From a virus (lineage: Duplodnaviria > Heunggongvirae > Uroviricota > Caudoviricetes), in IMG/VR virus record IMGVR_UViG_3300037789_000070, positions 202,576-266,575 of that record: a stretch of DNA of 64,000 nucleotides; one strand, written 5' to 3'. The position numbers were made by a program, and so were the translations under genes. Shown here in pieces: positions 40,055-41,403 of the stretch. The notes below the pieces were generated by a model. It was not told where the DNA came from. It saw only the letters and a list, made by a program, of their open reading frames with translations, and did no database searches. Each line of letters starts with the position of its first letter. The first letter of the stretch is position 1.

Positions 40055-40687
40055 TTATTCGAATATTTGTGAGGTAGGTTTCCAAGAAACAATATCATTC
40101 ACATCAACTGGATAGTTGGTGTCTGGTTCAACCCATCCATCACCAACCTTTTGTCTCAATGGATCATTAATTTCCCCCCAACGCATTTCCATCTCCTCTC
40201 CATTATTCAAAACAGCTTTGATAATAGCACCGTTATCTGGAGCGAATTTCATTGGAAAAGTTTCCATAGGTGGAAGATCGATGTAAAAGATAGGATTGAC
40301 TACTTCTTCAAATTCTGAACCGAATTTAAACCATGTATCTGGCCATGACGAAAGTACTGCTCCATACTCTCCAGTATCACACCCTCCACCTCCATATTCG
40401 ATGACGTTCCATCCATCCGTTGATAAAGAAGCATACTCGCAAGTGCCGCCATATATTGTTAAACAGTTCTCCCCAAGATAATAAGGGTCAGCATTATGAA
40501 TGCAGTAGGCTAGAATAGGCCTATCTTTGGGAGCAGTTTCCATATCCTTGGGCTTAATAGCATCGTGATATTTCTTTAGTTTTTGTCGTGTTTCGTCAAC
40601 TAACGTTGGATCAAAATTATCTATTGCTAAAATGTCGTTCAATAAATCAATGGTCTCTTCAACAACACTCACATCAAAAATATTCAT
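40055..40687 (-). CDS. hypothetical protein with METAPKD (DUF551-like) motif
   Basis: KDMETAPKDRPIL and a second MKFAPDNG-like repeat. Confidence 0.65.
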   Translation of the reverse strand: MNIFDVSVVEETIDLLNDILAIDNFDPTLVDETRQKLKKYHDAIKPKDMETAPKDRPILAYCIHNADPYYLGENCLTIYGGTCEYASLSTDGWNVIEYGGGGCDTGEYGAVLSSWPDTWFKFGSEFEEVVNPIFYIDLPPMETFPMKFAPDNGAIIKAVLNNGEEMEMRWGEINDPLRQKVGDGWVEPDTNYPVDVNDIVSWKPTSQIFE

Positions 40688-41403
40688 CGGTCATTCCTAA
40701 CTTCAATTAATCTGTCCAAACCAATAGCAATCTCAAAAACCTTCGCATCCGGAAAATCAGTTCTCAATGAAACTGAACACATTTCCGTCCAACGATCTTG
40801 GGCAATTCTATAGACCTCTACGTCCATAGTCTTTTCTGAATAACTTGGAAGTCTATCAGATTCAACAACGCGGGTCTCATGGCCGGTAAACAGTCCAATC
40901 TCCCGCTCTAGCAATGGAAGCATTCGCTGGTAGTAATCCATTTTGGTATCTAGACTATAGATGCACTGAAATTCCATCTGATAAAACTCGTTAAAACGTA
41001 GTTTAGATGGAGAAGCGCCATCTGCGGTTTCTCTGCGGAACGACTTACCAACTTGCCAAACACACAATGGAAGCCTAACCTTTTTATGAGAACTCAGAAG
41101 GTGATTAGCAAATGCATAACTAGACGGCGTTGTTTCCGGTCGTAAAGCTGCGTTATTTTCTCCCACAGGAGCATTAAGTAGCCAGATGTCCTCACCAGTA
41201 TATTGCGGATTAAGCCTATCAGTGACCGTAATAATCGGTCCCTCGACCCTTTCTGTTCGCCATGCCCCATTAATGTTCTTCAATTCTGTTAGAATCGAAT
41301 TACTGATTACGCTTACCGCGCTGTCCCGTTCTAAAATCTCACGTTCAGTCCAAAACCGAAGGCCGCCCGTTTCATAAAGGTCCAAACTCATATCTTTATC
41401 CAT
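40684..41403 (-). CDS. minimal class II aminoacyl-tRNA synthetase, GlyRS-1-like catalytic core without anticodon-binding domain
   Basis: LRPET, QVGKSFRRE (motif 2), EFYQME, LPSYSEKTMD, RTDF, EIAIGLDRL (motif 3); protein ends 7 aa after motif 3. Confidence 0.85.
   Translation of the reverse strand: MDKDMSLDLYETGGLRFWTEREILERDSAVSVISNSILTELKNINGAWRTERVEGPIITVTDRLNPQYTGEDIWLLNAPVGENNAALRPETTPSSYAFANHLLSSHKKVRLPLCVWQVGKSFRRETADGASPSKLRFNEFYQMEFQCIYSLDTKMDYYQRMLPLLEREIGLFTGHETRVVESDRLPSYSEKTMDVEVYRIAQDRWTEMCSVSLRTDFPDAKVFEIAIGLDRLIEVRNDR

What the first reader, a model, noticed from the sequence alone, without database searches (positions are those of the whole stretch)
40684..41403. Stand-alone 239-aa GlyRS-1-like catalytic core lacking the anticodon-binding domain
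Seen: class II motif 2 (GKSFRRE) and motif 3 (GLDRL) plus GlyRS-1 signatures LRPET, EFYQME, YSEKTMD, RTDF and EIAIG. The protein ends 7 residues after motif 3. Known: in alpha2-type GlyRS the Glu residues of RPET, QME and EPS bind the glycine amino group, and a C-terminal domain reads the anticodon. Inference: an anticodon-blind minimal synthetase could charge tRNA-CUA, charge host tRNAs damaged in the anticodon by defence nucleases, or act as an amino acid:carrier/protein ligase like other aaRS paralogues.
Basis: partly seen in the sequence, partly recalled or inferred. Interest (0 to 1): 0.78.

Follow-up and report, generated by a model that had tools for sequence, protein, structure and literature searches.

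The report
Phage mini glycyl-tRNA-synthetase catalytic core
A giant phage encodes a 235-239-residue protein that is only the catalytic core of a glycyl-tRNA synthetase, one member of a large unstudied family, and here it lies beside a stop-codon-reading tRNA that it may charge, although that link is suggestive and not proven.

Summary
Window 40684-41403 (-) is an intact ORF, probably starting at Met5 (41391). It folds confidently as a class II aaRS core. Sequence and fold searches both rank alpha2-type GlyRS nearest. All three class II motifs and the GlyRS glutamate triad are conserved. The anticodon-binding domain and both GlyRS insertions are missing, and no such domain is encoded anywhere in the 328-kb phage.

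It is not a one-off. More than 1100 relatives of 220-265 aa exist, mostly in jumbo phages, plus a nested chromosomal clade in Alphaproteobacteria. I found no paper on the family. This scan had already noted it on other DNA.

New here is a test of the tRNA-CUA idea.
- **For:** the gene lies 1.7 kb from the phage's lone tRNA-CUA and an amber-gated PTH2 gene. The same trio recurs in a second, separate branch of the family. Several other amber-pair phages carry the gene elsewhere in the genome. Only 1 of 20 phages with ungated PTH2 has it.
- **Against:** many carriers lack any suppressor, suppressor-PTH2 pairs exist without it, and the tRNA-CUA acceptor stems are not conserved.

Best reading: an active, dimeric, anticodon-blind glycine-activating enzyme. 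A tRNA acceptor is most likely (about 0.45) but unproven.

The parts
40684..41403 (-). Mini GlyRS-type class II aaRS core. The ORF is 239 aa, and the likely true start is Met5 at 41391, giving 235 aa.
   Evidence: ORF. Pfam, NCBIfam and PDB hits. AF2 model with pLDDT 90. Foldseek top hits are alpha2 GlyRS. Family alignment A1.
41224..41268 (-). Motif 1 region (residues 46-60, with invariant Pro56), which forms the core of the predicted dimer interface.
   Evidence: Invariant columns. Strand 49-52 follows helix 20-44. Interface residues 12-20 and 51-60 in the homodimer model.
41128..41145 (-). LRPETT segment (residues 87-92). E90 is the first glutamate of the glycine-binding triad.
   Evidence: Aligned to LRPETAQG of GlyRS by HMMER and MAFFT. 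R88, E90, T91 and T92 are invariant.
40957..41067 (-). Motif 2 (residues 113-149). It holds GKSFRRE, a 10-residue loop TADGASPSKL, and RFNEFYQME with E144.
   Evidence: Alignment to GlyRS motif 2. R123, E125, R136, F140, Q142 and E144 are invariant. The loop has low pLDDT, as flexible motif-2 loops do.
40693..40743 (-). Motif 3 (residues 221-237): VFEIAIGLDR with E224, A226 and R231, followed by a short C-terminal helix and the stop codon.
   Evidence: Aligned to VIEPSAGADR / VIETSVGASR of two canonical GlyRS. E224, G228, D230 and R231 are invariant.
38878..38953 (+). tRNA with anticodon CUA (amber suppressor), the candidate substrate. Acceptor pairs are G1-C72, C2-G71 and G3-C70, the discriminator is A73, and CCA is encoded.
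   Evidence: ARAGORN. Rfam tRNA model scores 69.1 bits against a gathering score of 29. Acceptor stem parsed. It is one of only two of the phage's 36 tRNAs that lie outside the array at 80-127 kb.
39217..39621 (+). PTH2 peptidyl-tRNA hydrolase gene gated by an in-frame TAG at codon 3 (39223-39225). It is the likely read-out of the suppressor tRNA.
   Evidence: With TAG read through, the Pfam PTH2 match covers profile positions 1-115 at 99.8 bits. From ATG 39304 it covers only 13-115 at 83.4 bits. No start codon lies between the TAG and profile position 1. The same gate is present in all 10 loci that hold the trio.
40055..40687 (-). 210-aa ORF immediately downstream, overlapping the synthetase stop by 4 nt (ATGA). 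Its function is unknown and it is private to this phage.
   Evidence: ORF. No hit in Pfam, PHROGs or PADLOC. Not homologous to the downstream genes of other loci.

Best explanation
The gene encodes a catalytically competent, homodimeric, minimal class IIa synthetase derived from alpha2-type GlyRS. It has been stripped of the N-terminal segment, both GlyRS insertion domains and the anticodon-binding domain.

Shown by computation:
- the fold;
- all three class II motifs;
- the ATP-binding arginines (R123 in motif 2, R231 in motif 3);
- the three glutamates (E90, E144, E224) that in GlyRS hold the glycine amino group.
All of these residues are invariant in the 30-sequence family alignment.

Inferred:
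- It makes glycyl-AMP, or the adenylate of another very small amino acid, since the Ser that follows the third Glu in GlyRS is Ala226 here.
- It passes the amino acid to the 3' end of a tRNA, recognising only the acceptor end through the motif-2 loop and not the anticodon.
- In this phage the favoured acceptor is the orphan tRNA-CUA 1.7 kb away. Canonical GlyRS needs C35 and C36, so a tRNA of glycine-type acceptor with a CUA anticodon would be a poor substrate for it.
- Charged tRNA-CUA would then read the TAG at codon 3 of the neighbouring PTH2 gene.

My sub-probabilities:
| Claim | Probability |
|---|---|
| GlyRS-derived class II core | about 0.95 |
| Forms an aminoacyl-adenylate | about 0.75 |
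| The acceptor is a tRNA | about 0.45 |
| That tRNA is the CUA suppressor | about 0.3 |
For: Fold and sequence.

Alignment with two canonical GlyRS shows exactly which parts are missing. It also shows that RPET, motif 2, the SxYSxxTxDxE and RTDF blocks, and motif 3 are retained.

The invariant columns of the 30-sequence family alignment include R88, E90, R123, E125, R136, F140, Q142, E144, R214, D216, E224 and R231. This conservation argues for catalysis and against a purely regulatory paralogue.

The homodimer model scores 0.86 (ipSAE) against 0.00 for the best of 3 controls.
- That mark was reached by 20 of 30 proteins solved as pairs of one chain and by 1 of 23 solved as single chains.
- The runs agree in at least 97% of contacts, and pLDDT is at least 87.
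- The interface runs through motif 1.
- Class II dimers are solved structures, so this pass may reflect likeness rather than independent evidence.

No relative is fused to an anticodon-binding domain, and none is encoded in the phage.

Link to tRNA-CUA:
- Of the phage's 36 tRNAs, 34 lie at 80-127 kb. The tRNA-CUA lies 1.7 kb from this gene.
- In 8 IMG/VR loci and in Sinorhizobium phage Phosso, a tRNA-CUA is the only tRNA within the fetched flanks (10 kb; 5 kb for Phosso). It lies 53-1701 bp upstream on the same strand.
- On the family tree these loci and the window fall on opposite sides of a 99% branch, so the association needs at least two origins.
- All 10 such loci also carry a PTH2 gene with an early in-frame TAG.
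- The gene shares a genome with amber-gated PTH2 in G004 (about 18 kb away), G021, and the contigs of L015/L213 and L016/L224.
- Among loci found by PTH2 first, 4 of 10 amber-gated records hold the gene, against 1 of 20 with ungated PTH2. My one-sided Fisher estimate is about 0.03, and the lineages are not independent.
- The window's tRNA-CUA has G1-C72, C2-G71, G3-C70 and A73. These are the acceptor elements listed for glycine identity of archaeal/eukaryal-type systems, and C35/C36 are the anticodon elements it lacks (PMC9976931, read).

From my own knowledge: the N-terminal-domain-less PylRS of Methanomethylophilus alvus is among the Foldseek hits (6jp2, 276 aa). It shows that a class II core of about 270 aa can charge a tRNA-CUA without reading the anticodon.
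Against: - No biochemical data exist for any member.
- The tRNA-CUAs next to the gene have freely varying acceptor stems. Pair 1:72 is G-C or C-G, and pairs 2:71 and 3:70 are of several kinds. The discriminator is G73 in the second lineage and A73 here. A simple shared acceptor identity is therefore absent.
- Motif-2 loop type and discriminator base do not covary cleanly over six lineages.
- Of 20 other jumbo-phage records that carry the gene, eight gave no PTH2 match, five of them CheckV-complete, and six more have an ungated PTH2. The alphaproteobacterial chromosomal copies have no tRNA consistently nearby and no conserved neighbour.
- Suppressor-PTH2 pairs exist without the gene. Examples are the complete 524-kb opal-pair genome G010 and the 89%-complete ochre-pair genome G011.
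- Phage tRNA-CUAs are usually held to be charged by host GlnRS (PMC12636597; bioRxiv 10.1101/2021.08.26.457843).
- Bacterial D-aminoacyl-tRNA deacylase removes glycine from non-cognate tRNAs, and U73 of tRNA-Gly acts as the antideterminant (PMC9976931). Gly on an A73 tRNA might therefore be unstable.
- Translation genes cluster in jumbo phages, so proximity alone is weak evidence.
Confidence: 0.45

Rival explanations
1. The enzyme activates glycine or another small amino acid but passes it to a non-tRNA acceptor. Candidates are a host or phage protein (as EpmA/PoxA modifies EF-P), a carrier protein thiol (as the SerRS-like amino acid:carrier-protein ligases do), or a small molecule (as AsnA does).
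For: - Every well-studied class II core that lost its anticodon-binding domain, other than PylRS, works on a non-tRNA acceptor (my own knowledge of EpmA, aa:CP ligases, AsnA and BirA).
- The family thrives in Alphaproteobacteria as a lone chromosomal gene among ordinary genes: MlaD, GGDEF, acyl-CoA dehydrogenase and thiolase. That setting offers no special tRNA.
- The family also occurs in many phages without suppressor tRNAs.
- A universal, host-supplied acceptor would explain the lack of any conserved neighbour.
Against: - No PP-binding carrier is encoded in the phage, and none lies next to the gene in any locus examined.
- The motif-2 loop, the tRNA acceptor-end reader in class II enzymes, is retained and highly conserved.
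- The gene is embedded in or next to tRNA arrays in about a third of the viral loci, and in a tRNA-repair island in L171.
- It shows the association with tRNA-CUA described under the best explanation.
Confidence: 0.3
2. It is an auxiliary glycyl-tRNA synthetase for ordinary tRNA-Gly, phage or host, recognising only the acceptor stem. Its role would be to raise Gly-tRNA supply or to bypass host control. The neighbouring tRNA-CUA would be unrelated and charged by host GlnRS.
For: - The glycine pocket is conserved.
- In several loci the gene directly follows a tRNA-Gly: L010, L011, L053 and L077.
- Phage tRNA-CUAs are reported as GlnRS substrates.
Against: - The nearest tRNA varies widely across loci: Glu, Ala, Arg, Tyr, Cys, Thr.
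- Canonical GlyRS depends on C35 and C36, so losing the anticodon reader would cost both efficiency and specificity.
- This phage's two tRNA-Gly genes lie more than 120 kb away.
Confidence: 0.12
3. It uses only the ATP site. It would either make Ap4A-type dinucleoside polyphosphates, as human GlyRS can, or act as a non-catalytic regulatory or scaffold subunit like HisZ or the GlyRS-like accessory subunit of mitochondrial DNA polymerase gamma.
For: - GlyRS is known to make Ap4A without an amino acid (my own knowledge).
- A calcineurin-type phosphoesterase lies 1.3 kb away in the window and within a few kb in L004, L171 and Phosso.
- Truncated aaRS paralogues include regulatory proteins.
Against: - The three amino-acid-binding glutamates and the rest of the pocket are invariant in the 30-sequence family alignment. 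Selection on ATP binding alone, or on a scaffold role, would not maintain them.
- The phosphoesterase is not a conserved neighbour. Its cluster is shared with only two other loci.
Confidence: 0.1

Closest known systems
Alpha2-type (dimeric) glycyl-tRNA synthetase, GlyRS-1 (for example M. tuberculosis 8T5N/8U2P, T. thermophilus 1ATI/1B76)
   Same: - Best match by sequence and by fold.
- Shared motifs 1-3.
- Shared LRPET, SxYSxxTxDxE and RTDF blocks.
- Shared Glu triad.
- Predicted dimer through motif 1.
   Different: - About half the size.
- Lacks the N-terminal 15 residues, the insertion between motif 1 and RPET, the insertion between RTDF and motif 3, and the whole C-terminal anticodon-binding domain.
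- Scores 54 bits against a cut-off of 312 for the GlyRS equivalog model.
- The Ser after the third Glu is Ala.
N-terminal-domain-less pyrrolysyl-tRNA synthetases (M. alvus, ISO4-G1; 6JP2, 8IFJ)
   Same: - A class II core of about 270 aa with no anticodon reader that pairs with a tRNA-CUA (my own knowledge).
- Structural hits at E about 6e-12.
- The gene-plus-tRNA-CUA arrangement is analogous.
   Different: - Only remote sequence similarity, E about 1e-3.
- A different amino-acid pocket.
- PylRS has a dedicated tRNA-binding tail and a highly idiosyncratic tRNA. Here the tRNA-CUAs look ordinary and vary in the acceptor stem.
EpmA/PoxA (GenX) and SerRS-like amino acid:carrier-protein ligases
   Same: Stand-alone class II catalytic cores that kept adenylate formation but lost the anticodon-binding domain. 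The aa:CP ligases activate Gly or Ala and occur in rhizobia (my own knowledge).
   Different: - They descend from LysRS and from methanogen-type SerRS, not from GlyRS.
- They have conserved partner genes (EpmB/EF-P, or a carrier protein). No partner or PP-binding gene is found here.
Phage 'code-change modules' (suppressor tRNA + TrpRS + RF1 in Jade phages; bioRxiv 10.1101/2021.08.26.457843)
   Same: A phage-encoded synthetase sits beside a suppressor tRNA and is proposed to charge it.
   Different: - Those use a full-length TrpRS and serve genome-wide TGA recoding of late genes.
- This phage uses TAG as a normal stop in 50 of 339 long ORFs.
- PTH2 is the only TAG-interrupted gene I could confirm.

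Membership tests
Class II aminoacyl-tRNA synthetase catalytic domain | Antiparallel beta-sheet fold with motifs 1, 2 and 3 | tested here: met
   Pfam tRNA-synt_2b is above its cut-off. The AF2 model has pLDDT 90. Foldseek gives probability 1.00 to many class II enzymes. Motif 1 Pro56, motif 2 R123/E125 and motif 3 R231 are invariant.
Class II aminoacyl-tRNA synthetase catalytic domain | Homodimer through motif 1 | tested here: met
   Model only. The score is 0.86 against 0.00 for the best control. The mark was reached by 20 of 30 proteins solved as homodimers and 1 of 23 solved as monomers. The interface uses residues 12-20 and 51-60. The pass may reflect likeness to solved dimers.
Glycine--tRNA ligase, alpha2 type (NCBIfam PRK04173 / TIGR00389) | Full-length match above the curated equivalog cut-off | tested here: not met
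   54.4 bits against a cut-off of 312, and 30.4 bits against 243.
Glycine--tRNA ligase, alpha2 type (NCBIfam PRK04173 / TIGR00389) | C-terminal HGTP_anticodon domain | tested here: not met
   No PF03129 match in the protein or in the whole phage genome. The protein ends 8 residues after the motif-3 arginine.
Glycine--tRNA ligase, alpha2 type (NCBIfam PRK04173 / TIGR00389) | Negatively charged glycine pocket (three Glu) | tested here: met
   E90, E144 and E224 align to the RPET, QxE and EPS glutamates of canonical GlyRS and are invariant. The following Ser is Ala226.
Glycine--tRNA ligase, alpha2 type (NCBIfam PRK04173 / TIGR00389) | Glycylation of tRNA-Gly | not testable with these tools
   Needs an aminoacylation assay.
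Amino acid:carrier-protein ligase (SerRS-like) | Adjacent or co-encoded phosphopantetheinyl carrier protein | tested here: not met
   No PP-binding (PF00550) match in the phage genome. None appears among the neighbours in 9 annotated loci.
EpmA/PoxA | LysRS-derived core with EpmB/EF-P partnership | tested here: not met
   The nearest relatives are GlyRS, not LysRS. No conserved neighbour exists.
Pyrrolysyl-tRNA synthetase (catalytic domain) | Match to the PylS C-terminal model above cut-off | tested here: not met
   TIGR02367 scores 12.8 bits against a cut-off of 178.

The most novel reading that the evidence does not exclude
The mini-GlyRS and the neighbouring tRNA-CUA form a natural orthogonal pair. 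An anticodon-blind synthetase of 235 aa loads a small amino acid onto a phage suppressor tRNA that host enzymes handle poorly, and the loaded tRNA opens the amber gate of the PTH2 gene. Together the three genes would make a self-contained translational switch. The family would then be the smallest natural aminoacyl-tRNA synthetase known.
Probability: 0.25. Interest if true: 0.85.

Novelty: new variant of a known kind. Interest (0 to 1): 0.62.

Why it matters
If active on tRNA, this would be the smallest natural aminoacyl-tRNA synthetase. It would be a living counterpart of the designed 'urzymes' used to argue how the genetic code began. It would also be a ready-made compact orthogonal pair for genetic-code expansion.

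If it acts on something other than tRNA, it defines a new GlyRS-derived ligase class. That class is used by hundreds of giant phages and is kept as a chromosomal gene by Rhizobium, Devosia and Phenylobacterium.

Either way, more than 1100 sequences currently labelled 'glycyl-tRNA synthetase', 'aminoacyl--tRNA ligase-related protein' or 'hypothetical' would gain a function. Cultured systems exist in which to test it: Caulobacter phage CcrSC, Brevundimonas phages, Sinorhizobium phage Phosso (which has the full trio), and Rhizobium itself.

Tried and rejected
- **Fused or split forms.** A search among proteins of 420-2000 aa found nothing. The exhaustive profile search listed no protein above 352 aa among the best 150. 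The 306-352-aa variants carry an unannotated insertion of roughly 60-80 aa between motif 1 and RPET, not an anticodon domain.
- **Conserved partner gene.** The downstream genes of six loci are unrelated to one another and to the window's 210-aa ORF. All-against-all clustering of ORFs from 170 loci found only PTH2 as a recurrent neighbour, in 14 loci.
- **Bacterial operon context.** Neighbours differ between Rhizobium, Devosia, Phenylobacterium, Labrys and Shinella.
- **Genome-wide TAG recoding.** Rejected. TAG ends 50 of 339 long ORFs. None of eight candidate TAG-bridged ORFs has a Pfam domain spanning the TAG.
- **Shared acceptor-stem identity of the tRNA-CUAs.** Rejected.
- **Clean covariation of motif-2 loop type with discriminator base.** Not found.
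- **PHROGs and PADLOC.** No match for the protein.
- **Rfam scan of 37-45 kb.** Found only the tRNA, with no leader RNA or T-box near the gene.
- **Literature.** Seven full-text searches found no description of the family.
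Full report
**1. The observation**

Window 40684-41403 (minus strand) is an open frame of 239 codons. Statistical support is strong.
- Pfam tRNA-synt_2b scores E 2.7e-9, above its cut-off.
- The best NCBIfam model is glycine--tRNA ligase PRK04173 at E 9.6e-15, but with only 54 bits against a curated cut-off of 312.
- The best solved sequences are bacterial alpha2 GlyRS at E 2.5e-9, or 2.5e-13 with a family profile.
- An AlphaFold2 model built on 30 relatives has mean pLDDT 90 and pTM 0.88.
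- Its best Foldseek matches are GlyRS of M. tuberculosis, M. thermoresistibile and T. thermophilus at E about 1e-13.

I add that motif 1 is also there: a long helix, a strand and the invariant Pro56. The true start is probably Met5 at 41391, as in the public gene call and in all relatives.

**2. Anatomy relative to GlyRS**

I fetched two canonical alpha2 GlyRS genes from bacterial genomes and aligned them with the family. The mini-protein keeps these elements:
- the GGL segment near the N-terminus;
- motif 1;
- LRPETT;
- motif 2 (GKSFRRE ... RFNEFYQME);
- the SDRLPSYSxxTxDVE and WxExxSxSxRTDF blocks;
- motif 3 (VFEIAIGLDR).

It lacks these elements:
- the first 15 or so residues;
- the large insertion between motif 1 and RPET;
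- the insertion between RTDF and motif 3;
- everything after the motif-3 helix, that is, the anticodon-binding domain.

The three glutamates that form the negatively charged glycine pit of GlyRS correspond to E90, E144 and E224. They are invariant in 30 diverse relatives, as are the motif-2 and motif-3 arginines. The serine that follows the third glutamate in GlyRS is alanine here. No HGTP_anticodon domain exists anywhere in the 327,992-bp phage genome, and this gene is its only tRNA-synt_2b match.

A homodimer model scores 0.86 (ipSAE) against 0.00 for the best of 3 controls.
- That mark was reached by 20 of 30 proteins solved as pairs of one chain and by 1 of 23 solved as single chains.
- The runs agree in at least 97% of contacts, and pLDDT is at least 87.
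- The interface runs through motif 1 and the conserved N-terminal segment.
- Class II dimers are solved, so the pass may be partly from memory.

**3. The family**

The word-indexed search found 1134 relatives, all 131-419 aa and in practice 225-265 aa. It found none among longer proteins. An exhaustive profile search of 1.84 billion representatives found 118 clusters at E below 1e-30, and no protein above 352 aa among the best 150.

The family occurs in cultured jumbo phages of Caulobacter, Brevundimonas, Sinorhizobium and Xanthomonas at 41-46% identity. There it is annotated variously as hypothetical, 'aminoacyl-tRNA synthetase' or 'serine-tRNA synthetase'. At least 104 IMG/VR contigs also carry it.

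It is also a chromosomal gene of many Rhizobium species, Devosia, Phenylobacterium, Shinella and Labrys. NCBI names it 'aminoacyl--tRNA ligase-related protein' there.
- It sits among ordinary genes that differ from genus to genus.
- No tRNA lies consistently nearby.
- On a maximum-likelihood tree the bacterial copies form a clade nested among phage sequences.

PHROGs and PADLOC have no model for it. Seven literature searches found no description. Earlier reports of this scan had already met the family on other DNA and reached the same structural reading.

**4. Surroundings in the window**

The phage has a T4-like structural module: Gp23, prohead protease and portal. Around the gene lie the following:
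| Feature | Position | Evidence |
|---|---|---|
| RNA ligase | 32863-33858 | |
| tRNA-CUA | 38878-38953 | |
| PTH2 peptidyl-tRNA hydrolase | 39217-39621 | |
| Private 210-aa ORF, overlapping the synthetase stop by 4 nt | 40055-40687 | |
| AAA ATPase | 41524-42741 | |
| Calcineurin-type phosphoesterase | 42734-43441 | |

The whole genome has 36 tRNAs. Thirty-four lie in an array at 80-127 kb. Only a tRNA-Met and the tRNA-CUA lie apart, and the tRNA-CUA is 1.7 kb from the mini-synthetase.

**5. The PTH2 gate**

The Pfam PTH2 match from ATG 39304 starts only at profile position 13. Reading from ATG 39217 through the TAG at 39223 restores positions 1-115 and raises the score from 83 to 100 bits. 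No start codon lies between the TAG and the domain.

The phage does not recode TAG in general. TAG ends 50 of 339 long ORFs, and none of eight TAG-bridged candidates has a domain spanning the TAG.

Searching phage contigs with PTH2 shows that this gate is widespread. It also shows that the gating stop codon matches the neighbouring suppressor:
- TAG with tRNA-CUA in a dozen loci;
- TGA with tRNA-UCA in L187 and L189;
- TAA with tRNA-UUA in L218.

The suppressor tRNA is therefore functional, and PTH2 is its read-out. Earlier reports of this scan reached the same view.

**6. Is the mini-synthetase part of that switch?**

Evidence for:
- In 8 IMG/VR loci and in phage Phosso, a tRNA-CUA is the only tRNA within the fetched flanks (10 kb; 5 kb for Phosso). 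It lies 53-1701 bp upstream of the gene on the same strand.
- All of these loci, like the window, have PTH2 with an early TAG at codon 3, 4 or 8, in three different sequence contexts.
- On the family tree the window and this group are separated by a 99% branch, so the association arose or was kept at least twice.
- The gene also shares a genome with an amber-gated PTH2 in G004 (about 18 kb away), G021, and the contigs of L015/L213 and L016/L224.
- Among PTH2-first loci, 4 of 10 amber-gated records hold the gene, against 1 of 20 with ungated PTH2. My own one-sided Fisher estimate is about 0.03, and the lineages are not independent.
- The window's tRNA-CUA has G1-C72, C2-G71, G3-C70 and A73. These are the acceptor elements listed for glycine identity, while the C35/C36 that canonical GlyRS needs are absent (PMC9976931).

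Evidence against:
- Of 20 other jumbo-phage records that carry the gene, eight gave no PTH2 match, five of them CheckV-complete, and six more have an ungated PTH2.
- A complete opal-pair genome (G010) and an 89%-complete ochre-pair genome (G011) lack the gene.
- The tRNA-CUAs next to the gene have unrelated acceptor stems and mostly G73.
- Loop type and discriminator do not covary cleanly.
- Phage tRNA-CUAs are generally thought to be charged by host GlnRS.
- Bacterial D-aminoacyl-tRNA deacylase strips glycine from tRNAs that lack U73.
- Jumbo phages cluster translation genes anyway. In other loci the gene sits in tRNA arrays next to Gly, Glu, Ala, Arg, Tyr or Cys tRNAs. In L171 it sits inside a tRNA-repair island with Rnl1, PNKP, Thg1-like and CCA-adding enzymes.

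**7. Verdict**

The finding is real and the structural reading is right. This is a natural, minimal, dimeric GlyRS-type catalytic core with an intact ATP and glycine site and no means of reading an anticodon.

Catalysis of adenylate formation is likely, at about 0.75. The acceptor is open.
- I favour a tRNA 3' end (about 0.45), with the neighbouring tRNA-CUA as the best single candidate in this phage (about 0.3).
- A non-tRNA acceptor comes next (about 0.3).
- A plain auxiliary GlyRS follows (about 0.12).
- ATP-only or non-catalytic roles come last (about 0.1).

It is not a member of the GlyRS equivalog family, because two defining features, full-length score and anticodon domain, were tested and not met. 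I class it as a new variant of a known kind: an aaRS-derived stand-alone core. It is uncharacterised as far as the searchable literature shows, and this scan has already seen it in other genomes.

Noticed in passing
window 39217-39621 (+); also L185, L187, L189, L191, L192, L196, L198, L203, L209, L213, L217, L218, L220, L224, L262, L268: PTH2 genes of many phages open with a 2-7-codon mini-frame that ends in a stop codon. The stop matches the anticodon of a suppressor tRNA encoded nearby: TAG with CUA, TGA with UCA, TAA with UUA. In this phage PTH2 is the only confirmed TAG-interrupted gene.
   Followed up: yes
G000:C1:105229-105558 (outside the window, inside the tRNA array region): A small RF-1-domain protein with an open frame of 183 aa (PF00472, E 8.6e-28). 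Its size suggests an ArfB-like ribosome-rescue peptidyl-tRNA hydrolase and not a full release factor.
   Followed up: no
L171:4195-18673: In one relative, the mini-synthetase sits inside a dense RNA/tRNA-repair island. The island holds RlaP, a metallophosphatase, a polynucleotide kinase-like P-loop, HAD_PNKP, Rnl1-type and Rnl2-type RNA ligases, a Thg1-like enzyme, a CCA-adding-type nucleotidyltransferase and RNase T.
   Followed up: partly
P0174, P0181, P0187, P0206, P0210: A subgroup of the family (306-352 aa) carries an unannotated insertion of roughly 60-80 residues between motif 1 and the RPET strand. Canonical GlyRS has its first insertion domain at the same site.
   Followed up: partly
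window 41524-42741 (+): An AAA ATPase lies divergently next to the synthetase. It matches phrog_7485 (E 6e-72) and has weak PADLOC IetA-like hits. A homologue lies about 1.5 kb from the synthetase gene in Brevundimonas phage Domovoi, annotated 'putative mitochondrial chaperone protein'.
   Followed up: no
window 40055-40687 (-): A 210-aa ORF whose start overlaps the synthetase stop by 4 nt (ATGA), which suggests translational coupling. It has no match in Pfam, PHROGs or PADLOC, and no counterpart next to the gene in other phages.
   Followed up: partly
window 29696-29771 (+): A lone tRNA-Met(CAU). It is the only other tRNA of the phage outside the array at 80-127 kb.
   Followed up: no
L224:4091-4260: The 607-kb phage that carries a close relative of the mini-synthetase has two tRNA-CUA genes side by side, one with A73 and one with G73, near its amber-gated PTH2.
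   Followed up: no
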